DNA of 64,000 bases, taken from assembly GCA_963790825.1 (NCBI GenBank), contig CAWBPM010000002.1:359159-423158 (forward strand), written 5' to 3'. Shown in pieces: positions 1 to 50,850 of this stretch. The notes under the pieces were generated by a model. That model was not told where the DNA came from. It worked only from the letters and a program-made list of their open reading frames with translations, and made no database searches. The position numbers and the translations under genes are program-made. Numbering within the stretch: position 1 is the first letter of the stretch; every line of letters starts with the position of its first letter. Origin of the DNA: Candidatus Levyibacteriota bacterium (lineage in GTDB: Bacteria; Patescibacteriota; Microgenomatia; Levybacterales; UBA12049).

Positions 1-784
1 CGTAAGCTTTAAGAGAAGCTATTTGGCTACCGATATATGTAGTTCCAAGCAAAAATCCGATTTCGTAAGCAATAGGTTCTTGTTCAAAATATAAGATGTT
101 TATAAGAAGGTTATTTTTAAGTCTTTTTGCTAAAGATAAATAAAAATTTCTGGTCAGTTTACTTGAAAAAGCACTATATCCTCTCGTTTCCCTTCTCCCT
201 TTACCATCAATTGAAAAAACAATATCTAATATATCGCCTGAGGTTTCCCCGTTAAAAAACTTCATGGAAAGCTTTTTTTCAATATTTCGAGCCGGTTTCA
301 ACAGTTTATTCTTTTTTCTGATTAGCACGTTTCCTTTTTCATCTTTATTAAAATACATGAAGTAATTGATGCTGTTTTGAGTGTATTCGATTTCCGATGT
401 ATATTTTTTTAGTTCCGTTAGATATTGTTCCGAAATATTATCGAGAACAATCGTTCCGGTTTGTAGTAATTGATTCAGTAATTCTTCCATTATCTTTTTA
501 TTTTGATAATCGATTAGAAAAGGAATCCCCAAGACAAAGTCTCCGGGAGGCAGTGTATAAACAGCAACACCAACTTTTTTCTCTTTAATCAGACTAGCAA
601 TACCTAATAATGTATCTTCCTCATAGATTGCCAAAATAATAAAATTCGCATAATGAAACGTTTCTAAAACCGAAATAAACCATTGTGGACCATTCGCATA
701 ATTGGCAAACTTCGAACGTTTCCAAAGATCTAACCAATCGTTCAAAAGATTATTTTCTAAGTTTGTGTAGCGTATTATTTTCAT
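1..784 (-). CDS. FemAB/CelD-like (GNAT-fold, BioF2-like) acyltransferase; gene runs off the window, N-terminus at 784
   Basis: I translated the minus strand by hand: ATG at 784..782 gives MKIIRYTNLENNLLNDWLDLWKRSKFANYANGPQWFISVLE... and stays open to position 1. It shares a 4-nt ATGA overlap with the upstream PIG-L stop, which suggests translational coupling. The W-rich N-terminus resembles FemAB/CelD-type acyltransferases. It is absent from the ORF track because it is truncated by the window edge. Confidence 0.4.
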   Translation of the reverse strand, partial: MKIIRYTNLENNLLNDWLDLWKRSKFANYANGPQWFISVLETFHYANFIILAIYEEDTLLGIASLIKEKKVGVAVYTLPPGDFVLGIPFLIDYQNKKIMEELLNQLLQTGTIVLDNISEQYLTELKKYTSEIEYTQNSINYFMYFNKDEKGNVLIRKKNKLLKPARNIEKKLSMKFFNGETSGDILDIVFSIDGKGRRETRGYSAFSSKLTRNFYLSLAKRLKNNLLINILYFEQEPIAYEIGFLLGTTYIGSQIASLKAY

Positions 785-5944: not shown

Positions 5945-8900
5945 TCAAAAATATCTCTCCATTCTTTTTATATTTTCTTCATTAACAGTTACGGCGCTTA
6001 AGGAAAGTTCATGCTCAATCCCGGCAAAACTCTTTTCTATCAATTCATAGAAAGATTGTGCGCTTTTCTCCCAGGTAAACTGATAAGCCCACTTAATTGC
6101 TTCCTGAGAAAAATTCTTTCTCAGATTTTCATTAGTAATAAGTTCCAATATTTTGTTTGCAAATTCATCTGCGTCCCCGTAGGGAACGAGAAAACCGGTT
6201 GAGGGATTATTAATGGAATCTCTAAGTCCCGGCACATTTGATGCAACCGTCGGTGTCCCGCACGCATTTGCTTCAATGGTTGTAATACCCCAGCCTTCCA
6301 TAAAGGAAGGATTTACAAATACCCATGCTTTCTGGAAAAGTTTAATTTTCATATCTTCTTCTACTTTTCCGGTAAATAGAATTTTATTTTTCATACCGAG
6401 ATTCTCGGCGTATTTCTCAAGTTTTCTTCTCTCTTCTCCCTCTCCGGCAATAATAAATTCTACTTCGGGGATGCTCTCGGAAATTTTCTTGGCTGCTTTT
6501 ATCAAAATATGCAGACTTTTATAAGACTGAAGTCTTCCTAAATATAAAACAGACGGGATCATACTCTTTATTCCTGGTTTATACTTCCCGAGATCAACAC
6601 CGTTATAAACAATCATTGGCTCTTTTTTTGTCAGTTTATGTCTCAGTATCTCTTCTTTGGAAGACGGAGAAACAGTCACAACCTGAACACTTTTGTAAAC
6701 CAAAGGCATAAGTTTTGCTTCCAGGAATAACGCTAACCATGAGAATGGTGGTTTTAAGCTTTTTCTAAATACTTCCTGATGCACGTGGTGAATTAAGAGA
6801 AATTTAGGCTTAAATGAATATAAAGGCGAAAAAAATGGAATACCATTTTCAGAGTCGATGATAGCATCAAATTTTCCATGCAGTCGGAAAATATAATAGA
6901 GACATGCCCAAAGATAAACGGTATAAAATCCTCCACGCCTGATAATTTGTACACCGTCAATTATTTCATTTCTTGGTCCTTTTAAACTATTTCCGCAAAA
7001 GACAGTAACAGCATTGCCGTCTTTTACCCACCGTTTGGCAAGTTCCTGAATGTAGACTTCTGCTCCCCCTGCCCATTTATGCCGTGTGTCACGCCAATTT
7101 AAAATAAGTATTCGTAATTTATCTCTTTTAGTATATGTCTTTTTATATGTTTTAAATAAGCCAAAAAAATCGACCATATTGTTTTCAAATGTCTTTACCT
7201 GCACTGCAAAAAGATGAAGAGTTAATGTAATAGTCAGATAGAAAACCCAAATAAAACTCATAACGTAAACAAACGAGAAAACTGTTTGGTGGAAAAACGA
7301 GATAAGAACAATTTGCAAGACACCAATTAATAACGCTGCTCCGGCAAAACTATAATATCTCTTCGTTAAATAGTAATCACCATAAACTCGAGAGATGGTA
7401 AAGCATAACATCGCAAGAGACATCGGAAGAAGATAGGCAGTTGCGGCAATTGCTTTCTGTCCGAAAAGATAAGGAGCTGAGTAGTGACCTAAAATACCGA
7501 AAACCAAAACAGCCGGAAACGCTAATATAATAGCGCCGAGAATCGCTACCATAAGAATTTTTTTTGAATCTCTGTTGGTTCCCTCGTCTCTGCTTATCAA
7601 AGGAATAAGAAACGGAGAGACAAAAGAACCCATAAAAAATATTGTTTTCGCTACTAATGATATGAGTGAATATAATCCTGCTTCGTTTGGACTGAGATAA
7701 TGTTTTGCTAAAATTACATCAAGATTGAGAAGAATCACTGAGGATAAAGCTGCCATTGAGGAGTTAAGAAAGTATTTCTTGGGAAAATATTTTGCTTCTG
7801 CGTGTACTGTTTCTTTCGCATTTTTTCTACTTTTTACGATCATAATCCATCCTGCCAGAAAGGCGATAGAAACAGAAAAGGGTATGGCTGTATACGCCCA
7901 AGACTTAAGTCCCAGCAATACTAGTAGGAATGCAAAACCGAGCTTGAGAATAGGCTCGAATATGGCCAGAATGCCAAGGAGCACAAAGCTTAAACGTGAA
8001 GACAAAAATCCTCTATCTGTTGCATATGCGAATATTACTAAAAGAACAGGGGAGAATAGAAGAAATGGAAATAAACTTTCTGTTTTAAAGAAATGTAAAA
8101 GAGAAGGCGACAGTCCAACCCATAAAATAGTCAGGACTATGGAAATTAGCAATAATTTTCCTCTGGTAAATTTCCAGAAATCGAATGCTGTGTTGTTATT
8201 ATATTTTCCTATGAGGTAGCCGGTTTTATAACCAACTGTTGCACCAAACGCTCTTGGTATAACCGAGGTGAGAGAAAATAATCCAGTCATGAGACCGATT
8301 AAGCCAAAATCTTCCAGACTTAATACGCGACCTAAGTAAGCACTATACAAAAAATTGAATAAGTTACCGAGACCTAAAGCTCCCATGTAGAAGACACCCG
8401 CCAGGTAATTGCCGTGAAGCCTTATTTCTGTTTTAAACCGATTTTTAATTTTTGCAAAAAAAACTTTCCGGTTATTTGAGTCAATATAGATAATTTGTTC
8501 CATAATGACATCGGGTAAACTGTGTAATGATTTAAAACGAAGCCCATGAATTGTTTTCTCCCAATAGTGCGGTTTAAAAAGTAACTGATACAAAGCCATC
8601 CCGCTCGCAATGCTGATTAAAAGCCAGTAGAACGGGATTAAGAATGTGTATTTAATAAGTCCCCATTGTTTACGTTTGGCACATCCGATCATATAGCAAT
8701 AAAAAAACATAAAATTTCCAAAAACCAGCGAAAGTACAGCGAGGTACAATACGGGGGAGGGGTATAGAGATTGGATGAAGTGACCGGCAAAAGGGTAGAG
8801 AGTAAAATAGGCAATTGTTAATAGCCAAAGCAAGGGATTTAGCAAGATAAAGGCTAATTTCCCTCCAACTGTTAGTTGAAAAAACAAGACATGTATTCCT

Positions 8901-10678
8901 TTTTGACGGGCAAACCTAAAAGTATGACGCATATGAACCAGATAGGTTTGCATATAGCCTTTTATCCAGCGCGACCTTTGTCTCATCCAATTCGTCAGAT
9001 TACTATTTGCCTCTTCAAATGTTGTGGAATCGATAATCGCAGTCTTATACCCTTTTTTAAAAAGCCGTATACCCATGTCCGCATCCTCAGTGACGTTAAA
9101 TGCATCCCAACCCCTTAGCTTCTTCAGATCCTCTGTCCTAAAATGATTGCTGGTTCCGCCCAGCGGTAAACTGGTTTCAAGTGATTGTAACCCCGGAAGT
9201 GTTACGTCAAACCACAGCGAATACTCTGCGGTAAAGAAACGCGTGAGAAGATTTTGTTTAGGATTATAATAATTTAATTTTGCCTGCAGGCAAACAATGT
9301 CCCGCGGACATTTTTGAAAAGCCAAATAGGCTTTTTTTAACTGCATTGGATCCGGAGAATCTTCGGCGTCGTAAATAACCAGATACTCTCCCAAAGCTTC
9401 TGATAAACCGAAGTTACAAGCTTTCGGTTTTGTTTTCGGCATCGAATAAGGAACAACGACGACTCGAACGTAAGACGGAAGTATCATTGTTTCTACCTTT
9501 TCTATAGATTCTCTGTCATCTTCTTCCAGTAAAAGCAGTACGTCTAATTTGTCTTTCGGCCACTGCAATAGCTCTATAGCACGAAGAAATTGAGGAATAA
9601 CCTGCGCTTCTTTATAGAGCGGACAAAGAATAGAGTAAATAGGAAGAGTATCGTCATTGAGGCTATTAATTTCTTTCGTGTCAACTGAAATTTCTTTATC
9701 AAAAGTCAGACTTTTGCTTACAATAAAGAAATTAAATAGTGCATCGACCAAATAAACCAGACTTAAAATGGCAATTATTATTTTTAAAGTAGTAAGAAAT
9801 TCGAAGAACAAACCAAACAGGAAAAGAGTAAGGACAGCGAAGATAAATATCTTCTGTTTTAGCTGCAGCGTATAGATCGCGGAATCATCAAAATCTAACG
9901 TAGTATGGGTAATATACTTTCTTTTTTTATAACCCATTCCTGCACCTTTCATGGAAGAAGAAGTTGTGGGAGGAATTTGTTGGGGATATAATTTTCTTAA
10001 CCTGATATATAAAGCACTAAGCAGTATCTTGCTTATGCTAGCCAAAGAAGAAACAGGTGAGTTTATTGAAAAATTCAAAGGGAAAGCAATTTCATAATTA
10101 GTGATAATAAACCCTGCCTGTTTCGCCCGGTAAAAAAATTCCAGGTTAAATGTTTGGTCGGACAGAGGATTAAACTTAAGAGTATCGAGGACCTCTCTTG
10201 AGAATATTTTTATTCCTGATTCTGTGTTTATATCTATGCCAAAAAGTGTTTTACCAAGCAGAGAGGTAAGAGTACCCGCAAATGTTCTTTTAGGGTTATT
10301 TTTTTGTTCTTTTTTCGCTGAGGCAACGATTATATCCGCCTTGTCTAACTTTTTAATCATCTCCGGAATTGCCGCAAGCGGGTAGCGTAAATCCGGGTCT
10401 ATTAGAATAACTGCGGAACCGGCCGTATTTTTAAACCCCTCAAGCACATAACCTGCCTTACCTTTTAATCCCGTGTTTCTATAAACTGAAAAATTTTTGT
10501 TTTTCTGCATTTCTTGTAATAGCTGAAGCGAGTCGTCTATCGAATAGTCATCAATAAAAATAATTTCGTAGGGGTAATTTGTAGCCGTAAATGCTTTTTC
10601 AATACCACTTATGATTTCCCCAAGCAAATTTTGCTTATTATATATAGGTATAATTATACTGATCAATCTATCTCTCAT
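5945..10678 (-). CDS. 1577-aa four-module fusion: Dpm1/GtrB-like GT2, TM segment, processive GT2 (QxxRW), Wzx-like flippase, GT4
   Basis: 1) aa 1-225: IISIIIPIYNKQNLL ... IFIDDYSIDDS, polyprenyl-phosphate sugar synthase-like GT2. 2) TM helices. 3) aa ~340-600: KTKPKACNFG ... VIYDAEDSPD ... QRSRWIKGY, a CESA/PgaC/NodC-like processive GT2. 4) aa ~735-1150: multi-TM Wzx-like module (YLGRVLSLEDFGLIGLM). 5) aa ~1160-1577: GT4 (ILNWRDTRHKWAGGAEVY ... EGWGITTIEANACGTPTVAS). It is one uninterrupted ORF. Confidence 0.8.
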   Translation of the reverse strand: MRDRLISIIIPIYNKQNLLGEIISGIEKAFTATNYPYEIIFIDDYSIDDSLQLLQEMQKNKNFSVYRNTGLKGKAGYVLEGFKNTAGSAVILIDPDLRYPLAAIPEMIKKLDKADIIVASAKKEQKNNPKRTFAGTLTSLLGKTLFGIDINTESGIKIFSREVLDTLKFNPLSDQTFNLEFFYRAKQAGFIITNYEIAFPLNFSINSPVSSLASISKILLSALYIRLRKLYPQQIPPTTSSSMKGAGMGYKKRKYITHTTLDFDDSAIYTLQLKQKIFIFAVLTLFLFGLFFEFLTTLKIIIAILSLVYLVDALFNFFIVSKSLTFDKEISVDTKEINSLNDDTLPIYSILCPLYKEAQVIPQFLRAIELLQWPKDKLDVLLLLEEDDRESIEKVETMILPSYVRVVVVPYSMPKTKPKACNFGLSEALGEYLVIYDAEDSPDPMQLKKAYLAFQKCPRDIVCLQAKLNYYNPKQNLLTRFFTAEYSLWFDVTLPGLQSLETSLPLGGTSNHFRTEDLKKLRGWDAFNVTEDADMGIRLFKKGYKTAIIDSTTFEEANSNLTNWMRQRSRWIKGYMQTYLVHMRHTFRFARQKGIHVLFFQLTVGGKLAFILLNPLLWLLTIAYFTLYPFAGHFIQSLYPSPVLYLAVLSLVFGNFMFFYCYMIGCAKRKQWGLIKYTFLIPFYWLLISIASGMALYQLLFKPHYWEKTIHGLRFKSLHSLPDVIMEQIIYIDSNNRKVFFAKIKNRFKTEIRLHGNYLAGVFYMGALGLGNLFNFLYSAYLGRVLSLEDFGLIGLMTGLFSLTSVIPRAFGATVGYKTGYLIGKYNNNTAFDFWKFTRGKLLLISIVLTILWVGLSPSLLHFFKTESLFPFLLFSPVLLVIFAYATDRGFLSSRLSFVLLGILAIFEPILKLGFAFLLVLLGLKSWAYTAIPFSVSIAFLAGWIMIVKSRKNAKETVHAEAKYFPKKYFLNSSMAALSSVILLNLDVILAKHYLSPNEAGLYSLISLVAKTIFFMGSFVSPFLIPLISRDEGTNRDSKKILMVAILGAIILAFPAVLVFGILGHYSAPYLFGQKAIAATAYLLPMSLAMLCFTISRVYGDYYLTKRYYSFAGAALLIGVLQIVLISFFHQTVFSFVYVMSFIWVFYLTITLTLHLFAVQVKTFENNMVDFFGLFKTYKKTYTKRDKLRILILNWRDTRHKWAGGAEVYIQELAKRWVKDGNAVTVFCGNSLKGPRNEIIDGVQIIRRGGFYTVYLWACLYYIFRLHGKFDAIIDSENGIPFFSPLYSFKPKFLLIHHVHQEVFRKSLKPPFSWLALFLEAKLMPLVYKSVQVVTVSPSSKEEILRHKLTKKEPMIVYNGVDLGKYKPGIKSMIPSVLYLGRLQSYKSLHILIKAAKKISESIPEVEFIIAGEGEERRKLEKYAENLGMKNKILFTGKVEEDMKIKLFQKAWVFVNPSFMEGWGITTIEANACGTPTVASNVPGLRDSINNPSTGFLVPYGDADEFANKILELITNENLRKNFSQEAIKWAYQFTWEKSAQSFYELIEKSFAGIEHELSLSAVTVNEENIKRMERYF

Positions 10679-11371: not shown

Positions 11372-13588
11372 ATGAAGAAATTATCAATTGTTATACCAAC
11401 CTGGAACGAGGAAGGAAATATCCTACCTATTGTTCTACGGATTGATGCTGCAATGAAACGCATTAATACAATGTATGAACTGATTTTTGTGGACGATAAT
11501 TCCACTGATAATACACAAACTGCAATAAAAGACCTGAGTCGTTCTTACCCGATCTCTCTTTGGATAAAAAAAGGGAGGAAGGGGAAGGCGTTTTCTCTAC
11601 TTGAAGGTTTTTCCTACGCAAAATATAACTTTCTCTGCATGATAGATGCGGATTTGCAATATCCGCCTGAAGCTATTCCTGCAATGCTTAAGAAAATCGG
11701 AAGAAAAAATGATATCATAGTCGCGAATAGGAATGAAAAGAATATTAATCTCATCAGAAAACTTTTCAGTCATTCTTTTCGTCTTATTTTCGGAAGACTT
11801 ATCCATACCTTCGATTGCGATGTTCAATCCGGACTGAAAGTATTTAAAAAAGAAATCATAGAGCGAATTGATATAAACCCGACTTCCTGGACGTTCGATT
11901 TGGCACTACTGACAAAAGCCAGAAATGCCGGATACAGTATTGGTACTGTCGATATTATGTTTGATAAGCGGTTTTCCGGGAAAGCCAAAATCGGGCTGTT
12001 GAAAGCATCACTCGAGATAGGATTAAATGCGCTATTTTTAAAATTTGCTAAAAACGAAATTATTCCCTTTAGTCTCGCGACAAAAAAAAGAAAAGGGGAT
12101 GGGTTTCATTATAAAGGAAAGCCGTTCGTTCCGCATACTGACCTACCCATGAAACGAAGCGCAATTCAAAGGTTGACCTTGGGACAAATCCTCATTCTCT
12201 CTGCACTTTTGTGTTTCTTCATTATTGCTTTATTTCTAAACTGGCATCTGGTTTTGCTTCTTCTTATCTCGCTGGTAAGTTTCCTTTATTTTAGCGATCT
12301 TTTATTTAATTTTTTTCTGATTTATAGAAGTTTTTCAAAAACTCCCGAAATAAAAATAACTAAAAAAGCGATTCAAAAAATACCTGATAGTTTCTGGCCG
12401 ATATATACTGTTTTTTGTCCGTTATATAAAGAATGGTCCGTTGTCCCGCAATTTATCAAGGCCATGAGTGATCTGGATTACCCGAAAGAAAAGTTACAGG
12501 TAATGCTTCTTTTGGAAGAAGATGATAAAGAAACAATTGAAAAAGTAAAAGAGTTCAGCCTGCCGTTTTATTTCCAGGTTGTTATTATTCCCGATGCAAA
12601 GCCAAAAACCAAACCAAAAGCCATGAATTTCGGCATGAAATTTGCAAAAGGGGAGTTTATCGTTATTTATGATGCTGAAGATATACCGGAAAAAGATCAA
12701 TTAAAAAAGGCTGTTCTGGCTTTCCAGGAAGTAGGATTAAAAACTGTTTGCCTGCAGGCAAAATTAAATTTTTATAATCCCCATCAAAATCTTTTAACAC
12801 GTATTTTTACAGCCGAATACTCCCTATGGTTTGATTTGGTACTTACCGGTCTTCAATCAATTAATGCGCCGATTCCACTGGGCGGTACTTCTAATCACTT
12901 TCGGGCCGGAGTTCTGGAAAAAATAAAGGGTTGGGATGCGTTCAATGTAACGGAAGATGCGGACCTCGGTATGCGACTGGTTAAAGAAGGATATAGAACG
13001 GGTATTATAGATTCGACTACGTATGAAGAGGCAAACAGTGATTATATAAATTGGTTCAATCAACGAACACGCTGGGTCAAAGGTTACATCCAAACTTACT
13101 TTGTTCACATGAGAAATCTCAGGGAGTTTAAAATGTCTCTCAGAAACCCCGATGCGATTACGTTTCAACTTGTTATCGGGGGGAAAATTTTATCCATGTT
13201 TATAAATCCGTTCATGTGGACGGTGACTATTAGTTATTTCGTCTTTCGCCCGATTATCGGTACATTTATCGATTCTTTCTTTCCCGGTCCCTTATTGTAT
13301 ATTGCTATGTTCTCGTTAATTTTCGGAAACTTTCTTTATTACTATTATTATGTGATCGGCTGTGCAAAAAGGAATTATTATGACATTATCAAATATCTCT
13401 TCCTGATTCCTTTCTATTGGTTGGCAATGAGTGTGGCAGCCTGGATAGCAACTTATAAATTTATTCACGAACCGTATTATTGGTCAAAAACAGTCCATGG
13501 CTTACATCTTCAGGATAGCAACAGTTTCGCTAAAAAGAAAGTGCCCCTTTTCCGCTTGAGTTTTCTACCTATTTTTGATAAAGAGTAA
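11372..13588 (+). CDS. 738-aa dual GT2 protein (Dpm1-like GT2, TM segment, processive QxxRW GT2, TM segment)
   Basis: LSIVIPTWNEEGNI ... FVDDNSTDNT, then KTKPKAMNFG ... VIYDAEDIPE ... QRTRWVKGY. It is a close paralogue of aa 1-720 of the 1577-aa protein. Confidence 0.8.
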   Translation: MKKLSIVIPTWNEEGNILPIVLRIDAAMKRINTMYELIFVDDNSTDNTQTAIKDLSRSYPISLWIKKGRKGKAFSLLEGFSYAKYNFLCMIDADLQYPPEAIPAMLKKIGRKNDIIVANRNEKNINLIRKLFSHSFRLIFGRLIHTFDCDVQSGLKVFKKEIIERIDINPTSWTFDLALLTKARNAGYSIGTVDIMFDKRFSGKAKIGLLKASLEIGLNALFLKFAKNEIIPFSLATKKRKGDGFHYKGKPFVPHTDLPMKRSAIQRLTLGQILILSALLCFFIIALFLNWHLVLLLLISLVSFLYFSDLLFNFFLIYRSFSKTPEIKITKKAIQKIPDSFWPIYTVFCPLYKEWSVVPQFIKAMSDLDYPKEKLQVMLLLEEDDKETIEKVKEFSLPFYFQVVIIPDAKPKTKPKAMNFGMKFAKGEFIVIYDAEDIPEKDQLKKAVLAFQEVGLKTVCLQAKLNFYNPHQNLLTRIFTAEYSLWFDLVLTGLQSINAPIPLGGTSNHFRAGVLEKIKGWDAFNVTEDADLGMRLVKEGYRTGIIDSTTYEEANSDYINWFNQRTRWVKGYIQTYFVHMRNLREFKMSLRNPDAITFQLVIGGKILSMFINPFMWTVTISYFVFRPIIGTFIDSFFPGPLLYIAMFSLIFGNFLYYYYYVIGCAKRNYYDIIKYLFLIPFYWLAMSVAAWIATYKFIHEPYYWSKTVHGLHLQDSNSFAKKKVPLFRLSFLPIFDKE

Positions 13589-20470: not shown

Positions 20471-22297
20471 ATGGATAATTTTACGTCACGCAATATAAGA
20501 AACATAGCAGTTATCGCTCATGTCGATCATGGGAAAACGACGCTGGTCGATTTTATGCTAAAACAATCCCAGACGTTTAGGGAAAATTCTCCCGAAATGA
20601 CCCAAACGACAATTCTTGATTCCGGTCCTCTTGAAAGGGAACGGGGGATAACCATTTTGGCAAAAAATACGGCTATTTACTATAAAGATACAAAAATAAA
20701 TATTATCGATACTCCTGGACATGCGGATTTCTCGGGAGAAGTGGAACGAACCTTGAATATGGCAGACGGAGCACTCCTTATTATTGATGCCCAGGAAGGA
20801 CCTATGCCGCAGACAAAATTTGTTTTAAAAAAGGCTATGGAAATCGGGTTGAAAATTATTGTTGTTATTAATAAAGTTGATAAGAAGTTAGCCGATATCA
20901 AAGATACTATTGAGAAAACAAATGATTTATTTTTAGAGCTGGCACATGTCCCAAATCAGTTAAATTTTTCTGTTTTTTATGCCATCGGGAAAGAGGGGAA
21001 AGCCGAAGATTCGGTTGAAAAAATTAATGATAATTCAACCCTGGATCCGATTATGCAGGCAATTATCAACGAGATTCCTCAGCCGAAAATCAGACTTGGC
21101 CCCTTTAAATTATTGGTTGCTTCATTGGATTTCGATTCACACCGCGGAAAACACCTTATAGGTCGAATTACTGCCGGTGAAGCGGTTTCGGGTTCACCTG
21201 TTGCGCTTCTCAAAGCAGATGGTTCTAAAGTAATGGGTAAACTCGATCATATAACTGTCACTCATGGGTTAAAAAAGGTTGAGGTAGAATCGGCAGTTGC
21301 CGGAGAAATTATCAATATTACCGGTGTTGATAATGCAGAAATTGGCGATACATTAAGCGACCCGTCAGATCTTACAGCCTTACCCAGAATCTCCATTGAG
21401 GAACCCACAATTAAAATTGCACTTTCCAGTAACACTTCTCCTTTTGCCGGTAAGGAAGGACGATTTTCTAATTCCCGGCAAATTTTAGAAAGATTATACA
21501 AAGAGCTGGAAACTAATGTCAGTTTACGTCTTGAAATTTCGGAGAACGGACTTATCATTTCAGGTAGGGGAGAATTACATTTATCGATTCTTATCGAGAC
21601 GTTGCGGCGTGAAGGCTATGAATTTCAAGTCGGAAAACCACAGGTAATTACAAAAATTGTTGCCGGGATTGAGATGGAACCGGTTGAAGATTTATTTATC
21701 GATATTCCTGATGAATTTGTCGGAACAGCTACGGAAGAAATAGGAAAAAGGAAAGGGCAAATGACCAATATGCTACCAAACCACAAAGGTTATACCAGAA
21801 TTGAATATAAAATTCCCTCCAAATCATTGATCGGACTCAGAAGTATATTACTCACAAAAACAAGAGGATCTGTAGTAATTAACACGATCTTTGATTCTTA
21901 TGCACCCATTTCTCCCGCAACTCCCCAACTTCGAAATGGTGCACTTATTGCTTCCGAGAGTGGAGTCGCGCTCGCATATGGCCTGCATAATGCTCAGGAA
22001 AGAGGAATAACCTTTATCGAGCCGGGAACCAATGTGTATGAAGGAATGATCATTGGTCTGAATACGAGACCGGACGATATTGAGGTTAATGTAACCAAGG
22101 AGAAAAAACAATCTAATATGCGCTCAAAAGGCGAGGGTGTTAAATTGGCTCTAACACCTCCGGTTCTAATGAGTCTTGAGCAATGTATTGATTTTCTGGA
22201 AGATGATGAGTTACTCGAAGTCACGCCGTTAAATCTTAGGCTTCGAAAACGCTTCCTAACCCAGCTGGAAAGGATTCGCTATCTTAGGGGACAGTGA
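20471..22297 (+). CDS. typA: Translational GTPase TypA/BipA
   Basis: IRNIAVIAHVDHGKTTLVD, DTPGHADF and NKVDK are the G-motifs. The 608-aa length and C-terminal domain are typical of BipA. Confidence 0.95.
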   Translation: MDNFTSRNIRNIAVIAHVDHGKTTLVDFMLKQSQTFRENSPEMTQTTILDSGPLERERGITILAKNTAIYYKDTKINIIDTPGHADFSGEVERTLNMADGALLIIDAQEGPMPQTKFVLKKAMEIGLKIIVVINKVDKKLADIKDTIEKTNDLFLELAHVPNQLNFSVFYAIGKEGKAEDSVEKINDNSTLDPIMQAIINEIPQPKIRLGPFKLLVASLDFDSHRGKHLIGRITAGEAVSGSPVALLKADGSKVMGKLDHITVTHGLKKVEVESAVAGEIINITGVDNAEIGDTLSDPSDLTALPRISIEEPTIKIALSSNTSPFAGKEGRFSNSRQILERLYKELETNVSLRLEISENGLIISGRGELHLSILIETLRREGYEFQVGKPQVITKIVAGIEMEPVEDLFIDIPDEFVGTATEEIGKRKGQMTNMLPNHKGYTRIEYKIPSKSLIGLRSILLTKTRGSVVINTIFDSYAPISPATPQLRNGALIASESGVALAYGLHNAQERGITFIEPGTNVYEGMIIGLNTRPDDIEVNVTKEKKQSNMRSKGEGVKLALTPPVLMSLEQCIDFLEDDELLEVTPLNLRLRKRFLTQLERIRYLRGQ

Positions 22298-22395
22298 AGC
22301 TCCTAGGACTTGCGATCTAACTTTCCATTCACATTTCGACGGGAACGAAATCCTTGCGAAGTCCCACTCAGCGGGACGAAGGGGGATAAAAAGAT
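22286..22395 (+). repeat. Copy A of a roughly 105-nt conserved 3'-intergenic hairpin element
   Basis: GACAGTGAAGCTCCTAGGACTTGCG ... GAAGTCCCACTCAGCGGGACGAAGGGGGATAAAAAG. It is about 80% identical to copy B at 33263-33375. It overlaps the typA stop codon. Confidence 0.6.
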
Positions 22396-22740
22396 TTAGC
22401 AGCAATTCTGTTTGTATGTGCAGCGGGGATGGCGAAATTTAAAACGCGTAGGATAACGCAGGCCCTGGACAATACCGCCTGAAACAACTCCTTTTATCAC
22501 AAGCAGATGAAATAAACTGTCAAAGCTAATAAACCCAAGCATAGTTAAGACTGACAACACCAGCCAATGATGAAAATGGTAGGTTTTCGTATGATAATGA
22601 ATCCGAACATTCGGAAGAATTTCAACATTCTTAAAATGGATATGGGGAAGAGCACCTTTCTTTTTTTTGGGGTGAGAGAAGTAAAGAAAAAAAAGATATC
22701 CAATCCCGCCAGACAGAACAAATAAAAAGAGACTATTCAT
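22396..22740 (-). CDS. Hypothetical small membrane protein
   Basis: An ORF with hydrophobic segments and no recognisable motif. Confidence 0.3.
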   Translation of the reverse strand: MNSLFLFVLSGGIGYLFFLYFSHPKKKKGALPHIHFKNVEILPNVRIHYHTKTYHFHHWLVLSVLTMLGFISFDSLFHLLVIKGVVSGGIVQGLRYPTRFKFRHPRCTYKQNCC

Positions 22741-26039: not shown

Positions 26040-26546
26040 TTATTTTTTTGCAGTCCGTTTAACTACCTTTGAGGAATTGATGATATCTCTCGGTTCGCCG
26101 TCGGGTCCGTCAATTTCATTTGCTCCGGTCATCCTTTGATATTCCAAGAGATAGTCGGAAAGTGCGGCTTGTTTTTCCCTTAACTCCAACCGCATGCTTT
26201 TTACTTTATCCGCTAGTTGTACTACTGCCGGTTGCTTCATAATCTGGTCCCGAGTCGCGGATTTTACTTTATTTGCTTCTTTTACTTTTTTATCGTGTTC
26301 CAGGTAAACCGGACTATTATTAAATGAATCAGCAAACATTTCATTGTGCTTGCGCATTTCCTCGCGGAGCTTATCAATCGTCGCGATGTGGGATTTAATA
26401 AGTTCTTCCAAACTTAAAAGAACGGTGGCTTCGCTATTTGTACTATCGGAACGGGAAGAAGAAACGATATCTCCTTCGACTACTAGTTCCTCATCCTTAT
26501 TGTTGTCCTGGTCATCCATATAATTTACTATACAAAATATTAACAT
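26040..26546 (-). CDS. Hypothetical acidic coiled-coil protein
   Basis: ORF only. Confidence 0.35.
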   Translation of the reverse strand: MLIFCIVNYMDDQDNNKDEELVVEGDIVSSSRSDSTNSEATVLLSLEELIKSHIATIDKLREEMRKHNEMFADSFNNSPVYLEHDKKVKEANKVKSATRDQIMKQPAVVQLADKVKSMRLELREKQAALSDYLLEYQRMTGANEIDGPDGEPRDIINSSKVVKRTAKK

Positions 26547-32260: not shown

Positions 32261-33274
32261 ATGTATAGTTCCTATGATCAAATAAATAATAGAAAACAGC
32301 GACAGCAGCCGAAAAGAACAATTGGATTATTTTTTTTCGTATTTATTATCCTACTCGTCGGCCTTTTTATGTTATTTCGTTTATCATCCCATACTTCAAA
32401 TGTGTCTAAAACTAGCCTTTCTCATAGCGAATCGGTTTCACACGTCCTGGCCGATAAAACAAAGTCGGATGCGGAAAATAATAACAATAATGTTGGACTT
32501 GCAAACGCGGTCAGAAACGCACTTATAGGAACAACCGGTAGTTACGCAGTTGTGGTTATGAACTTACATAACAAAGAGAGTTATGCCAGTAATGAACATC
32601 TTGTATACGAATCGGGGAGTTTGTATAAGTTGTGGGTTATGGCAACTGCTTTTGAGCAGATTGATAGTGGGATAATTCATAAGGCAGATATACTAACGGG
32701 GAGTATTCCTGCGTTAAATAAGATGTTTAATATCGAAGCAGATTCAGCCGAGGAAACTTCGGGTACTATTACACTTTCCCTACAAGATGCAATATACCAG
32801 ATGATCACTATTTCCGATAATAACGCGGCACTTCTTCTAACCGAAAAAATAAAGTTAGCAAATATTACAGCGCTCCTTACGGCTCATGGTTTTGCTGAAT
32901 CAAAAGTGGGAATCGGAGACGGGGAACCTACAACAACCGCTTCGGATATTGCACTTTTTTTAGCGAACCTTTACCGGGGGAAATTAGCCGATTCCAAGTC
33001 CAGCAACGAAATGATTACCTTACTTAAAGAGCAGAAATTAAACAGTAAGATACCAAAATATTTGCCGGATGATATTACAGTTGCCCATAAGACAGGAGAG
33101 TTAGATGCATTTACCCATGACGCGGGAATTATATATAGCCCGAATGGCGATTATATTCTGGTCGTGTTATCAAAAAGTGATAATCCGTCTGAGGCTTCGG
33201 AACGAATCGCCGACGTATCCCAAGCTGTCTATAACTATTTTACGGATGAAGAACCAGTAAAGACAGGACAATGA
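32261..33274 (+). CDS. Class A beta-lactamase-fold serine hydrolase, membrane-anchored
   Basis: N-terminal TM helix. The S-x-x-K (SLYK), SDN (ISDNNAA) and KTG (HKTGE) motifs are all present. Confidence 0.7.
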   Translation: MYSSYDQINNRKQRQQPKRTIGLFFFVFIILLVGLFMLFRLSSHTSNVSKTSLSHSESVSHVLADKTKSDAENNNNNVGLANAVRNALIGTTGSYAVVVMNLHNKESYASNEHLVYESGSLYKLWVMATAFEQIDSGIIHKADILTGSIPALNKMFNIEADSAEETSGTITLSLQDAIYQMITISDNNAALLLTEKIKLANITALLTAHGFAESKVGIGDGEPTTTASDIALFLANLYRGKLADSKSSNEMITLLKEQKLNSKIPKYLPDDITVAHKTGELDAFTHDAGIIYSPNGDYILVVLSKSDNPSEASERIADVSQAVYNYFTDEEPVKTGQ

Positions 33275-33375
33275 AGCTCCCAGACCTTACAATAGTTCTT
33301 TCCACTCACACTCCGGCGGTAGTGAAATTCTTCCGAAGTCCCGCTGAGTGGGACAGAGGAGGATAAAAACCAATA
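33263..33375 (+). repeat. Copy B of the roughly 105-nt 3'-intergenic hairpin element
   Basis: GACAATGAAGCTCCCAGACCTTACA ... GAAGTCCCGCTGAGTGGGACAGAGGAGGATAAAAAC. It overlaps the stop of the beta-lactamase-like gene. Confidence 0.6.
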
Positions 33376-33400: not shown

Positions 33401-34520
33401 TTTTTCGAAAAATAGTCATGAATAAGTCACGATACATATTGGAATCTTAAGGAAGAAGATTCTATGCCAAGTGATTTTAAACGAGTAAGACATTTACGAC
33501 CAAAATACTCACAAAAGAGCTATCATATACTGATGAAAATGCTCCAGAATTCATTAGCAGTTGAAGTATCCGATGTAGCTGCTTTTCGCCTTCACGTGAT
33601 TAATCACTACTACAAGTATGGACTGCGTCCAACCCTTGCTGCATTCAAAATAAAGAAGAGCAGCTTATACAACTGGAGAAATGCTTATGAACACAACGGA
33701 AAAAGGACAATCAGTTTAGTGCCACACGGAACTAGACCTCTCCATGTGCGAAAGATGGAGACAGACTGGAGAATAATTGAGTTCATTAGAGAGATGAGGC
33801 ATGAGCATGGGAATATTGGTAAAAGTATGCTCAAGCCCTTTGTTGATGCGTATGCCAAAGAGCTGGGTATTAAGACCTTGGCAGAAAGTACTATTGGGAA
33901 AGTACTTAAAAGACGTCACTTAACATTTGAGAAGAAAGTCTACCCACAGAAACAAAAAAACAAGTTCAAAAAGCTAAGAGTGAGAAAGTCTCCTAAGGTA
34001 GTTTCTCCTGGATTTATTGAGATGGATTCAGTAGTTGTCTATATCAATTTTGAGAAACATTTGTTTATGTGTGTGATTGATATTTACACAAAATTTGCCT
34101 TAGTTGTATATGTACCGGATCTCTCCTCAGTAACAGCAAGAGAGGTTTTTAAGCAGTTCCAGTGCAATAATCCAACACCGATTCATACAATCCAAACAGA
34201 TAATGGATCAGAGTTTCTCAAATCATTCCATGAGTATATAGTTGAACAGAAAATTAAACATCAATTTATCTATCCCAGAATGCCAAAGATTAATAGTTAC
34301 ATTGAGAGATTCAATCGGACAATCCAGGAGGAATTCATTTTAAGAAATGACGAGATTTACTATGACTCAGAAGCATTTGCAAAAAAGCTCACAAAGTATT
34401 TATACTGGTATAACTATAAGAGGCCACATGCTTCGCTTAAATATATGTCGCCTATGTCCTTTATACAAGCCAAGATTCCAATAAGTGCGTGACGCATACA
34501 AGTCATGCATTATTTTTTCA
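33401..34520 (+). mobile_element. Putative IS element (rve/IS481-like) with degenerate terminal inverted repeats
   Basis: It carries a single DDE transposase ORF. The candidate imperfect inverted repeats at 33401-33435 and 34485-34520 share GAAAAATA ... CATGA ... GTCACG. The boundaries are approximate. Confidence 0.4.
33464..34492 (+). CDS. DDE transposase, integrase core (rve) domain, IS481-like
   Basis: HTIQTDNGSEF ... YNYKRPHASLKYMSPMSF is the rve DDE region. An N-terminal HTH is present. Confidence 0.75.
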   Translation: MPSDFKRVRHLRPKYSQKSYHILMKMLQNSLAVEVSDVAAFRLHVINHYYKYGLRPTLAAFKIKKSSLYNWRNAYEHNGKRTISLVPHGTRPLHVRKMETDWRIIEFIREMRHEHGNIGKSMLKPFVDAYAKELGIKTLAESTIGKVLKRRHLTFEKKVYPQKQKNKFKKLRVRKSPKVVSPGFIEMDSVVVYINFEKHLFMCVIDIYTKFALVVYVPDLSSVTAREVFKQFQCNNPTPIHTIQTDNGSEFLKSFHEYIVEQKIKHQFIYPRMPKINSYIERFNRTIQEEFILRNDEIYYDSEAFAKKLTKYLYWYNYKRPHASLKYMSPMSFIQAKIPISA

Positions 34521-50244: not shown

Positions 50245-50850
50245 TTAGGGGGTGAATCCTCGGGACCGGGCTGCCAGGAGTACGCCTTTGTAATTACCGC
50301 CGTATGTTTTCAATCCCATGCTCCAACCACCATGTTTAGCTAGATAATTGGCTGCTGCATAGATCGCATCTACCGCGTTATCTATGTCAGGATGACCGTC
50401 AACTTTATACGCTTGGAATGTTCCTGGCATAAATTGCATTGGTCCTCTGGCTCCCGTACCATATCCGCTGAGAATCGGACCATTACGAAGTCCTGTTTCT
50501 GTCATATGAATGCCGTATAGGATTTGCCAGGGTATACCAAACTGTGACCCGGCTTGTTTGTAAACATTATCAAAACTCGACGGGGGATATGAGGTTTGCG
50601 AAGGCAGAGTAAATTGCGTAGTAACAGGCTTTGGATTTTGCAAAGAAATAGCATCAACTTCTTTCGCTAAAGAACTATTGCTTTTTCGGGAGACTTCATT
50701 CTTAAGTACTTTCGCATTTTCAGGCATTACAACTAAGTACTGAATCAGCACAGCAGGAGAAGAATTTATTTTGGAGAAAGGCGAAGAGAAAAGTAATACT
50801 CCTGCCAAAATAGTCGGCACAATTGTTGTCGGCATAAAGCAAAAAACCAA
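50245..50850 (-). CDS. Lytic transglycosylase (SLT domain), exported
   Basis: HMTETG ... GPMQFMP are the SLT catalytic motifs. A signal peptide is present. Confidence 0.8.
   Translation of the reverse strand: MVFCFMPTTIVPTILAGVLLFSSPFSKINSSPAVLIQYLVVMPENAKVLKNEVSRKSNSSLAKEVDAISLQNPKPVTTQFTLPSQTSYPPSSFDNVYKQAGSQFGIPWQILYGIHMTETGLRNGPILSGYGTGARGPMQFMPGTFQAYKVDGHPDIDNAVDAIYAAANYLAKHGGWSMGLKTYGGNYKGVLLAARSRGFTP

What the first reader, a model, noticed from the sequence alone, without database searches (positions are those of the whole stretch)
22286..22395. Conserved roughly 105-nt hairpin element present twice at gene 3' ends (second copy at 33263-33375)
The two segments are about 80% identical over about 105 nt. 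Both begin inside the last codons of a plus-strand gene (GGACAGTGAAGCTCC / GGACAATGAAGCTCC; both proteins end ...GQ*). Both contain the hairpin GTCCC-loop-GGGAC. The two loops are reverse complements of each other (ACTCAGC vs GCTGAGT), consistent with a conserved stem. Both end in GG(A/G)GGATAAAAA. The similarity is far too high for unrelated intergenic DNA in an AT-rich genome. Possibilities are a structured 3'-UTR or terminator element, a small RNA, or a miniature repeat or recombination site. Copy B sits directly beside the IS at 33401.
Basis: seen in the sequence. Interest (0 to 1): 0.55.

Follow-up and report, generated by a model that had tools for sequence, protein, structure and literature searches.

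The report
Selfish palindromic repeat at gene ends
The two look-alike 100-base segments are copies of a small, non-coding, hairpin-forming repeat that has spread through the genomes of tiny uncultured (Patescibacteria/CPR) bacteria, landing at gene ends and even in-frame inside essential genes; its core hairpin also occurs in many other bacterial phyla and matches no Rfam family.

Summary
Copy A (22292-22393) and copy B (33269-33370) are 76% identical over 104 nt (E 2e-16). Both start at the TGA stop of a plus-strand gene (typA; a beta-lactamase-family gene). Their 17-nt hairpin cores are exact reverse complements. They are the only copies in the window.

It is not a gene-specific 3'-UTR signal or a local duplication. 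The same ~100-nt composite occurs in other Patescibacteria: after uppS, upstream of genes, and as in-frame inserts in gyrA (~36 aa) and miaA (33 aa). Two relatives with syntenic typA loci lack it.

Its 3' 42-nt module has a covarying outer stem, a conserved non-complementary GAA/GNA internal loop and a GUCCCGC/GCGGGAC inner stem. Alone, this module is multi-copy in MAGs of many phyla. It sits between genes, abutting tRNAs, and in ORFs in both orientations, sometimes with 10-18-nt flanking duplications. No Rfam family matches and there is no terminator U-tract.

Best reading: a non-autonomous selfish palindromic element, like Rickettsia RPEs or REPs. The mobilising enzyme is unknown; an HUH-type enzyme acting on single-stranded hairpins is only a guess. 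An RNA-level side effect such as 3'-end protection is possible but untested.

The parts
22292..22393 (+). Copy A of the ~100-nt composite palindromic element. It fills the whole 98-nt spacer between the convergent genes typA and ORF114.
   Evidence: 76% identical to copy B, E 1.8e-16. Aligns along its full length with composite members from other CPR genomes.
22295..22297 (+). TGA inside the element's conserved 5' end (G/A)TGAAGCTCC, used as the stop codon of typA.
   Evidence: A 499-codon open stretch ends exactly here. The gene is TypA/BipA by Pfam, and its length of 608 aa is normal for the family.
22296..22346 (+). Copy A 5' arm: GAAGCTCC, a variable region with a pyrimidine-rich tract (CTTTCCATTCAC), then GGGAAC (family consensus GGAGC). 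The GAA linker that follows falls in the 3-nt gap before the hairpin module.
   Evidence: Homologous to the 5' arms of L080, L082, L121 and L148. Its fold is not settled.
22350..22387 (+). Copy A hairpin module. Outer stem ATCCTT(G)C / GGGGGAT (22350-22357 / 22381-22387). Internal loop GAA/GAA (22358-22360 / 22378-22380). Inner stem GTCCCAC / GCGGGAC (22361-22367 / 22371-22377). Apical loop TCA (22368-22370).
   Evidence: Model R1 hit at 22347-22389, 27.6 bits, E 5.4e-5. Copy A was not in the training set. Fold.
33269..33370 (+). Copy B of the composite element, directly after the beta-lactamase-family gene.
33272..33274 (+). TGA of ATGAAGCTCC, used as the stop codon of the Beta-lactamase2-family gene 32261-33274.
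   Evidence: A 349-codon open stretch ends here. Pfam PF13354.
33328..33364 (+). Copy B hairpin module. Outer stem TTCTTCC / GGAGGAT. Internal loop GAA/AGA (33335-33337 / 33355-33357). Inner stem GTCCCGC / GTGGGAC (33338-33344 / 33348-33354). Apical loop TGA (33345-33347). The 17-nt core is inverted relative to copy A.
   Evidence: R1 hit at 33325-33366, 39.8 bits, but this copy was in the training alignment. Inversion shown.
22396..22740 (-). Context only: ORF114, a conserved small protein convergent with typA. Its TAA stop abuts the end of copy A.
   Evidence: 52% identical to the 113-aa gene at the same position next to typA in L154, where the 111-nt spacer has no element.
33464..34492 (+). 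Context only: IS481-like transposase (rve domains), about 55 nt downstream of copy B. It is not part of the element.
   Evidence: Pfam rve/rve_3. IS inverted repeats at 33434-33448 / 34472-34486 are unrelated to the element's ends. A Logan contig of the same organism breaks at about window position 33447.

Best explanation
The two segments are two insertions of a ~100-nt non-autonomous, non-coding palindromic repeat element. This is selfish DNA of the kind typified by Rickettsia palindromic elements (RPE) and REP/MITE-like repeats. The host is a Patescibacteria (Microgenomates-like) genome.

Anatomy. The element has a 5' arm that begins (A/G)TGAAGCTCC, and a 3' 42-nt hairpin module. The module has an outer stem, a 3x3 non-complementary internal loop GAA/GNA, an inner stem GUCCCGC/GCGGGAC and a 3-nt apical loop. 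The element ends in GGATAA(AAA).

Why it sits at gene ends. Its first bases contain TGA in one frame, are open in a second frame (xNEAP...), and contain ATG in the third. Insertions therefore survive in three situations:
- at the extreme 3' end of genes, where the TGA terminates the protein at once (typA and the beta-lactamase-family gene here; uppS elsewhere);
- in-frame in surface loops (gyrA, miaA elsewhere);
- between genes.
This explains why both window proteins end in Q-stop.

Inferred steps, not shown.
- Copies spread in trans through an enzyme that recognises the folded single strand, since the mismatched GAA/GNA loop is conserved while the stems covary. An HUH/Y1-type enzyme acting on single-stranded DNA is the leading candidate, held with low confidence.
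- The exact inversion of the 17-nt core between A and B arose by hairpin- or cruciform-mediated template switching or by recombination between the arms at the DNA level.
- As a by-product, the hairpin in the typA and bla 3' UTRs may protect the mRNA 3' end, as REPs do. This is untested.
For: Shown by tool results.

1. It is a family, not a local duplication. Full-length homologues with the same ends occur in other CPR genomes and metagenomes: L080 (Parcubacteria CG1_02_44_31), L082 (Nealsonbacteria), L121/L144, L148 and L140.
2. Locations vary. Composite copies lie after uppS with TGA as the stop (L080); 6 nt after a TAA stop and upstream of the next gene (L082); in-frame in GyrA's C-terminal domain, 43 query residues against 8 in E. 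coli GyrA structure 1zi0, an insert of about 35-36 aa; and in-frame near the MiaA C-terminus.
3. Orthologous sites are empty. Syntenic typA loci of two relatives (TypA 72-73% identical) have a 5-nt spacer or a 111-nt AT-rich spacer with no R1 hit. ORF114 is conserved at that position.
4. The hairpin module is widespread.
   - 69 of 120 hairpins have at least 6 of 7 outer-stem pairs in register, against about 3% expected by chance.
   - 4 of 6 outer-stem pairs show compensatory changes, with 0 of 500 shuffles reaching the observed covariation.
   - Several genomes carry multiple copies.
5. It behaves as DNA.
   - The plain hairpin sits in real ORFs in both orientations, 24 sense and 28 antisense by a crude ORF map. 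It encodes LPAEVPxxGTKAG or PPSSRxAGLRRA in a GT4 glycosyltransferase, PMT/TPR proteins, UvrD, MurC and NrdD.
   - G.T and A.C mismatches in the stem are equally frequent, 12 versus 10.
   - In a MurC family the same loop is empty in some members and carries the hairpin peptide in two 67%-identical members. Their hairpin DNA aligns almost without differences while the flanking coding DNA has diverged.
6. Flanking direct repeats of at least 10 nt occur at 7 of 75 hairpins, against 0 of 75 in each of two control sets.
7. Rival signals are absent. There is no codon periodicity between A and B, no consistent reading frame across members, no terminator and no Rfam family.
8. The elements are 50-56% G+C in a 38% G+C window.
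Against: - No transposase or other mobilising gene is linked to the element. An IS200-like Y1_Tnp gene lies in a relative's syntenic block, but tblastn finds none in the window or in about 150 hairpin loci.
- No clean terminal inverted repeats or target-site duplications can be defined for copies A and B. Flanking duplications occur at only a minority of plain hairpins and vary in length, which does not fit HUH-type transposition.
- No true presence/absence polymorphism between near-identical strains was available. The 'empty sites' are in relatives with only 72-73% TypA identity.
- All 8 independent composite copies are in sense orientation to the neighbouring or host gene. Stop-codon content does not explain this, so an RNA-level role or a strand-specific insertion mechanism remains open.
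- Cross-phylum conservation of the hairpin core is unusual for genome-specific REP or MITE families and could mean a conserved cellular function.
- Alignment A2 was pre-filtered for outer-stem pairing, which inflates the percentage of paired cells.
- The copy number in the source genome (751-kb contig) could not be measured.
Confidence: 0.68

Rival explanations
1. It is primarily a functional structured RNA in the 3' UTR: an mRNA 3'-end stabiliser, a processing site, an unconventional terminator, or a 3'-UTR-derived small RNA. On this view it is selected at these two genes.
For: - Copies A, B, L080 and L002 lie immediately after stop codons in sense orientation, and all 8 composite loci are sense.
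- The hairpin has a covarying outer stem.
- Parcubacteria-type composites fold better than shuffles, z -3 to -4.5.
- Copy A fills a convergent-gene spacer, where a bidirectional barrier would be useful.
Against: - The element is absent at orthologous typA ends in relatives.
- The same element sits inside gyrA and miaA coding sequence and upstream of genes.
- The plain hairpin occurs in ORFs in antisense as often as in sense. The mRNA then carries UUC/UNC instead of GAA/GNA.
- No U-tract follows the hairpin.
- Folding of A and B is not better than shuffles, z -1.2 and -0.9. The reverse strand of other members folds as well or better.
- G.U pairs are not favoured over A.C mismatches.
Confidence: 0.17
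2. It is a recombination or attachment site used by the neighbouring IS481-like element or by an integrase. That would explain why copy B sits beside the IS.
For: Copy B is about 55 nt from the IS. Some IS families target REP-like hairpins; this is from general knowledge of IS110/IS1111 and was not tested here.
Against: - Copy A and all other family members examined have no IS or integrase next to them.
- The IS ends share nothing with the element.
- The IS is not inserted in the hairpin.
Confidence: 0.05
3. It is a local duplication or gene conversion of a gene's 3' end within this genome, with no wider meaning.
For: Only two copies are seen in 64 kb. Both include the last two codons, GQ-stop.
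Against: Homologous elements occur in unrelated CPR genomes next to unrelated genes. The upstream coding sequences of typA and bla are not similar.
Confidence: 0.03
4. It encodes a small protein: ATGAAGCTCC = MKLP..., ending at GGATAA.
For: Copy B has a 33-codon ORF and L080 a 40-codon ORF. Both start at this ATG and end at the same TAA, with similar tails RSPAEWDRGG / RSPAKRDEGG.
Against: - Copy A starts with GTG and stops after 8 codons.
- L121 stops in the apical loop.
- L082 and L148 pass the hairpin in a different frame.
- There is no third-position excess of differences.
Confidence: 0.02

Closest known systems
Rickettsia palindromic elements (RPE; Ogata et al. 2000, cited from memory)
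   Same: A hairpin-forming repeat of about 100-150 bp without its own gene. It is found between genes and as in-frame inserts in protein-coding genes, including essential ones, where the extra peptide sits in loops. No mobilising enzyme is known.
   Different: - Different host phylum: Patescibacteria, with the hairpin module also in many other phyla.
- No sequence relationship was tested or is expected.
- This element has a modular build and a conserved mismatched GAA/GNA internal loop.
- Its own TGA is used as a stop codon at gene 3' ends.
REP / REPIN elements mobilised by RAYT (Y1/HUH) transposases
   Same: Short G+C-rich imperfect palindromes. They are multi-copy, often sit between convergent genes at 3' ends, and are recognised as folded single strands with essential mismatches. 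REPs can stabilise upstream mRNA.
   Different: - REPs are extragenic, carry a 5' GTAG tetranucleotide, are specific to a genome or clade, and co-occur with a RAYT gene.
- Here the hairpin also lies in ORFs and has no GTAG (GCYTG precedes many plain copies).
- The core is shared across phyla, and no RAYT was found in the sequence available.
MITEs such as Correia/NEMIS, ERIC and Nezha
   Same: Small, non-autonomous, repeated and structured when transcribed. They can supply stop codons or alter gene ends.
   Different: MITEs have defined terminal inverted repeats matching a parent IS and fixed-length target duplications. Neither could be shown for copies A and B, and the flanking repeats at plain hairpins vary from 10 to 18 nt.
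Mobile GC clusters and double-hairpin elements of fungal mitochondria (from memory)
   Same: G+C-rich palindromic mini-elements in an A+T-rich genome. They insert in intergenic DNA and in-frame in genes.
   Different: These are organellar and unrelated in sequence. The comparison is by analogy only.
Minute hairpin-loop inversions in non-coding DNA (Kelchner & Wendel 1996, chloroplasts; from memory)
   Same: The segment between two short inverted repeats flips, giving the exact reverse complement, as seen between the cores of A and B.
   Different: This describes a mutational process, not an element family.

Membership tests
REP/REPIN (RAYT-associated) | Short G+C-rich imperfect palindrome forming a hairpin | tested here: met
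REP/REPIN (RAYT-associated) | Strictly extragenic location | tested here: not met
   The plain hairpin and the composite both lie in-frame inside ORFs: murC, gyrA, miaA, GT4, uvrD. The two window copies themselves are extragenic except for the stop codon.
REP/REPIN (RAYT-associated) | Conserved GTAG/GTGG tetranucleotide 5' of the palindrome | tested here: not met
   The 5' flank is GAAAT in composites and GCCT, GCTT or CTTG in plain copies.
REP/REPIN (RAYT-associated) | A RAYT (Y1_Tnp) gene in the same genome, flanked by REPs | tested here: inconclusive
   tblastn with an IS200-like Y1_Tnp from relative L152 finds nothing in the 64-kb window or the loci. Only about 8% of the source genome was visible.
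Rickettsia palindromic elements (RPE) | Palindromic repeat of about 100-150 bp lacking an ORF of its own | tested here: met
   Members are 97-126 nt with no conserved frame.
Rickettsia palindromic elements (RPE) | In-frame insertion into protein-coding genes, tolerated in loops | tested here: met
   GyrA C-terminal domain insert of about 35-36 aa relative to 1zi0. MiaA insert of 33 aa. This holds for family members elsewhere, not for the two window copies.
Rickettsia palindromic elements (RPE) | Sequence homology to RPE-1..8 and a Rickettsia host | not tested
   No RPE sequences were compared. The host is Patescibacteria, so this is an analogue, not a member.
MITE | Terminal inverted repeats matching a parent IS | tested here: not met
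   The ends TGAAGCTCC and GGATAAAAA are not inverted repeats of each other. The adjacent IS481-like element has unrelated ends.
MITE | Fixed-length target-site duplication | tested here: inconclusive
   A subset of plain hairpins has 10-18-nt flanking repeats, 7 of 75 against 0 in controls. For A and B only a weak RGGAYA repeat is seen.
Intrinsic (Rho-independent) terminator | G+C-rich hairpin followed directly by a U-tract | tested here: not met
   No terminator-like site lies in either element. The hairpin is followed by GAAGGGGGAUAAAAA.
Any Rfam 15 RNA family | Score at or above the family's gathering threshold | tested here: not met
   The best weak resemblance is GA-cis at 15.3 bits against a threshold of 34.7.
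Bacterial SECIS | Hairpin just after an in-frame UGA that is decoded as selenocysteine, with the ORF continuing | tested here: not met
   TypA ends at the normal family length. In-frame stops follow 3 codons later in A and 5 codons later in B.

The most novel reading that the evidence does not exclude
The 42-nt hairpin may be a previously undescribed, cross-phylum mobile nucleic-acid module. It has covarying stems around a conserved mismatched GAA/GNA internal loop and a GUCCCGC/GCGGGAC core.

On this reading an unknown structure-specific machinery moves it and leaves variable flanking duplications. It colonises intergenic DNA, tRNA borders and, in-frame, essential genes such as gyrA, murC, miaA and uvrD. 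It is found in Patescibacteria, Verrucomicrobiota, Desulfobacterota, Ignavibacteria/Chlorobi, Bacteroidota, Acidobacteriota and Planctomycetes. That would make it a bacteria-wide counterpart of the Rickettsia palindromic elements, and the ~100-nt window element would be its Patescibacteria-specific composite form.
Probability: 0.4. Interest if true: 0.75.

Novelty: new variant of a known kind. Interest (0 to 1): 0.6.

Why it matters
- Scope. In-frame selfish palindromic DNA is best known from Rickettsia (from my own knowledge). Here the same behaviour appears in CPR bacteria with ~1-Mb genomes, which are usually regarded as streamlined. A hairpin core shared across distant phyla accompanies it.
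- Annotation. The element supplies stop codons (typA, bla, uppS), possibly a start codon (L082), and 13-36-aa loop inserts. These could otherwise be misread as lineage-specific protein features.
- An open question made testable. The conserved mismatched loop points to a still unidentified structure-specific enzyme or binding protein. Co-occurrence analysis across genomes could find it.
- A marker. The element offers a way to trace horizontal exchange among uncultured lineages.

Tried and rejected
- Rfam. Gathering and permissive scans of the window, both copies, 18 loci, and the L040 and L082 elements found nothing.
- Protein-coding remnant or small ORF. Rejected on codon-position counts and inconsistent frames.
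- Extra copy at 50669-50700 (inverted repeat I4). It lies inside a 201-aa ORF and is a chance match.
- Left end of the IS. The IS inverted repeats lie at 33434-33448 and 34472-34486, outside the element.
- Terminator. Rejected.
- RNA strand test by G.U versus A.C mismatches. No bias, 12 versus 10.
- Heptamer tandem repeats flanking hairpins, seen by eye at L051 and L090. With strict criteria tandem repeats of any period occur in only 3 of 180 flanks (two of them period 7), so this is not a general feature.
- Other inner-stem variants flanked by GAA...GNA. These are rare in the loci held, but the loci were selected on GTCCC.
- Transposon between paired hairpins in L092. The interior encodes Crp-like and other ordinary genes.
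- Y1 transposase link. No hit in the window or loci.
- Viral carriers. There were 0 matches of the hairpin pattern in IMG/VR.
- Literature searches by sequence strings and by topic. No description of this motif was found.
- GC skew of the window. Uninformative about replication direction.
- Consensus fold of the 5' arm. With 7 sequences (5 types) the MAFFT/RNAalifold result is unreliable. Two competing helices exist for the GGAGGAU strand.
Full report
**1. The observation**

The two segments exist as described.
- blastn aligns window 22289-22392 with 33266-33369 at 76% identity over 104 nt without gaps, E 1.8e-16 (alignment).
- Each begins at the stop codon of a long plus-strand gene. One is typA/bipA (20471-22297). 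The other is a Beta-lactamase2-family gene (32261-33274).
- In both, the TGA of (G/A)TGAAGCTCC is the true stop, and both proteins end in GQ*.
- Both carry GTCCC-N7-GGGAC. The complete 17-nt hairpin of A equals the reverse complement of that of B.
- Both end in GG(G/A)GGATAAAAA.
- No other copy is in the window, by blastn with word size 7 or by covariance model R1 with filters off.
- Differences between A and B are spread evenly over codon positions in all frames. The similarity is therefore not a coding remnant.
- The window has 38% G+C. The hairpin parts of the elements have 50-56% G+C.

**2. Organism and neighbourhood**

- TypA's best homologues are from Patescibacteria (Levybacteria and other Microgenomates/CPR MAGs). 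The nearest is only 73% identical. The source contig is 751 kb.
- Copy A fills the whole 98-nt spacer between typA and a convergent 114-aa gene. That gene is conserved next to typA in a relative, at 52% identity.
- Copy B is followed, about 55 nt later, by an IS481-like element. Its rve transposase is at 33464-34492 and its inverted repeats at 33434-33448 and 34472-34486. The IS ends are unrelated to the element.

**3. It is a family**

A scan of JGI metagenomes used the pattern GAAGCTCC-N38-68-GANAT-N4-5-CGAAGTCCC. It returned full-length homologues with the same two ends from other CPR bacteria.
- L080 type: Parcubacteria CG1_02_44_31, found in several samples.
- L082 type: Nealsonbacteria.
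- L121/L144, L148 and L140.

Their contexts differ.
- L080: after uppS, with the element's TGA again serving as the stop codon.
- L002: 14 nt after another gene in the same genome as L080.
- L082: 6 nt after a TAA stop and in front of a sortase-like gene.
- L140: upstream of a gene.
- L121/L144: in-frame inside gyrA.
- L148: in-frame near the end of miaA.

The gyrA case is clear. Against E. coli GyrA C-terminal domain structure 1zi0, the alignment breaks exactly at the element. There are 43 query residues where the structure has 8. The insert reads QNEAPHPTLRGVVSSPPPRSEILPKSRLSGTKEDKN.

The three forward frames of the element behave differently.
- Frame 0 opens with TGA.
- Frame 1 (xNEAP...) is open in 5 of 6 members.
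- Frame 2 opens with ATG.

This accounts for where copies are tolerated. It also explains why both window proteins end in Q-stop. No single frame is conserved through the hairpin, so the element is not a gene.

**4. It is absent at orthologous sites**

Two relatives have syntenic loci of typA, a small convergent gene, a GT4 glycosyltransferase, enolase and a His-phosphatase. One has a 5-nt spacer after typA (L152) and the other a 111-nt A+T-rich spacer (L154). Neither has an R1 hit. The element is therefore not a conserved typA 3'-UTR feature. It was gained in the window lineage or lost in both relatives.

**5. The hairpin module is far more widespread**

- Most hits share features that were not in the pattern:
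  - an inner stem extended to GTCCCGC/GCGGGAC;
  - a 6-7-bp outer stem in register, with at least 6 of 7 pairs in 69 of 120 hairpins against about 3% expected;
  - often GCYTG on the 5' side.
- The outer stem covaries: CCCGCC/GGCGGG, TCCTCC/GGAGGA, CCAGCC/GGCTGG, CTCACC/GGTGAG, CTTACC/GGTAAG. Four of 6 pairs have double changes, and 0 of 500 shuffles reach the observed score. The caveat is that the alignment was pre-filtered for pairing.
- The 3' side of the internal loop is GAA in 47 of 60 and GNA in 56 of 60. It is never the complement UUC.
- Hosts include many CPR lineages, Verrucomicrobiota (Opitutaceae and others), Desulfobacterota ('delta proteobacteria', with a bulged-G subtype), Ignavibacteria/Chlorobi, Bacteroidota, Acidobacteriota, Planctomycetes and others. 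Several copies often occur per genome, some on megabase contigs.
- Hits in cultured Actinobacteria and similar genomes lack the extra features and look like chance.
- No Rfam family matches. The best is GA-cis at 15 bits against a threshold of 34.7.
- IMG/VR viral contigs gave no match.
- Text searches found no description of the motif.
- Copy A, which was not used to train R1, scores 27.6 bits, E 5e-5.

**6. It behaves as DNA rather than as a sense-strand RNA signal**

- By a crude ORF map, about half of the plain hairpins lie within long ORFs: 24 in sense and 28 in antisense.
- Inspection shows real proteins with the hairpin translated as LPAEVPxxGTKAG, PPSSRxAGLRRA or other frames. They include a GT4 glycosyltransferase, PMT/TPR proteins, UvrD, MurC and NrdD. 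Other copies lie in 5' leaders of gyrA and leuS.
- In a MurC family, one loop takes three states:
  - no insert in P0126, P0134, P0136 and P0158;
  - short repeat-derived peptides in some members;
  - YPPSSR(F/S)AGLRRA in two members that are 67% identical.
- In those two members the hairpin DNA aligns almost without differences, while the flanking coding DNA has diverged.
- G.T and A.C mismatches in the outer stem are equally frequent, 12 versus 10. Neither strand's RNA is therefore favoured by wobble pairing.
- Some hairpins use the first bases of a tRNA-Gly gene as their 3' outer strand: L027, L058 and L096.
- Long flanking direct repeats occur at a subset: at least 10 nt in 7 of 75, against 0 of 75 in each of two control sets. 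One case duplicates 18 nt of a tRNA gene end.

**7. What does not fit neatly**

- No transposase is linked to the element. A relative has an IS200-like Y1_Tnp in the syntenic block, but none is in the window or the loci.
- Copies A and B show no clear terminal inverted repeats or target duplication. There is only a weak RGGAYA repeat at both borders.
- All 8 independent composite copies are in sense orientation to the adjacent or host gene. Reverse frames are mostly open, so stop codons do not explain this. Either the composite has an RNA-level role, or insertion is strand-specific, as it is for single-stranded-DNA transposons coupled to replication.
- The strictly conserved mismatched loop suggests recognition of a folded single strand.
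- Folding energies of A and B are unremarkable, z -1.2 and -0.9.
- The 5' arm's structure is unresolved. In Parcubacteria-type members a CUCCUCCUU tract competes with AUCCNCC for the GGAGGAU strand.
- There is no terminator U-tract.

**8. The inversion between A and B**

The central 7 nt differ at three positions, and these are exactly the three changes that produce the reverse complement. Only 1 of the 945 possible 7-mers at three substitutions from A's sequence is its reverse complement. An inversion mediated by the flanking GTCCC/GGGAC arms is therefore more likely than three independent substitutions. This points to hairpin or cruciform dynamics at the DNA level. It is a known mutational process in other systems (from memory: chloroplast hairpin-loop inversions).

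**9. Conclusion**

The finding is a pair of copies of a non-autonomous palindromic repeat. It works like RPE, REP and MITE-type selfish DNA, but it fails the defining tests for REP (extragenic only, GTAG) and MITE (inverted repeats matching a parent IS). It is only an analogue of RPE.

The window copies are ordinary members of this family, sitting where insertions are harmless. The family itself is not in Rfam, and I found no description of it. It has a cross-phylum hairpin core, a conserved mismatched loop and in-frame inserts in essential genes.

Confidence is about 0.68 in the selfish-repeat reading. It is about 0.17 that the primary role is an RNA function in the 3' UTR. The proposed HUH-type mobilisation is inference only.

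Noticed in passing
window 33430-34495: An IS481-like insertion sequence, with rve transposase at 33464-34492 and candidate inverted repeats at 33434-33448 / 34472-34486. A short-read contig of the same organism (L001) ends at about window position 33447, which suggests the IS is multi-copy in the genome.
   Followed up: partly
window 56014-57186: Nested tandem repeats of 162-nt, 53-nt and 41-nt units. They are rich in ACN/CCN codons and encode a Thr/Pro-rich, probably surface or linker, protein region.
   Followed up: no
window 8930-9296 and 12745-13111: A 367-nt inverted repeat at 72% complementarity with arms 3.4 kb apart. It is probably a pair of diverged paralogous genes in opposite orientation.
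   Followed up: no
L152 17200-17631 (GCA_035510695.1, closest relative): An IS200-like Y1_Tnp (HUH) transposase gene lies about 5 kb downstream of typA in a block syntenic with the window. The window has an unrelated 168-aa ORF (26040-26546) at the corresponding place.
   Followed up: partly
alignment A4 (MurC homologues P0121-P0158): The same CPR MurC family carries other short inserts at other sites: KILNTKYK in P0132 and YPPKFSKGKLRRAR in P0124 and P0133. These look like further variants of hairpin or short-repeat elements translated in-frame.
   Followed up: no
L157 around 2750-2900 (MurC of GCA_030692085.1): Next to the conserved hairpin lie two more mini-hairpins, TCCACC-TTCG-GTGGA and CCAACC-GTAG-GTTGG, inside the coding sequence. 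Here the loop side equivalent to GAA is GTA, so the GAA side also varies and the pattern scans undercount the family.
   Followed up: partly
L027 494-527, L058 1051-1092, L096 6534-6576: The 3' outer strand of the hairpin (GCGGG...) is at the same time the first bases of a tRNA-Gly gene. In L017 an 18-nt tRNA gene end is duplicated on both sides of the hairpin.
   Followed up: partly
L054 1776-4123: A CPR (Giovannonibacteria) 16S rRNA gene interrupted by a group I intron, with a plain hairpin copy about 120 nt after the 16S 3' end.
   Followed up: no
L051 (about 6330-6370) and L090 (about 590-650 and 850-900): Locus-specific 7-nt tandem repeats flank the hairpin directly: GTATTTN x5, ACATCGA x4, CACGCCT x4. 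This is rare overall, with tandem repeats of any period in only 3 of 180 flanks. It might be a footprint of repeated insertion and excision.
   Followed up: partly
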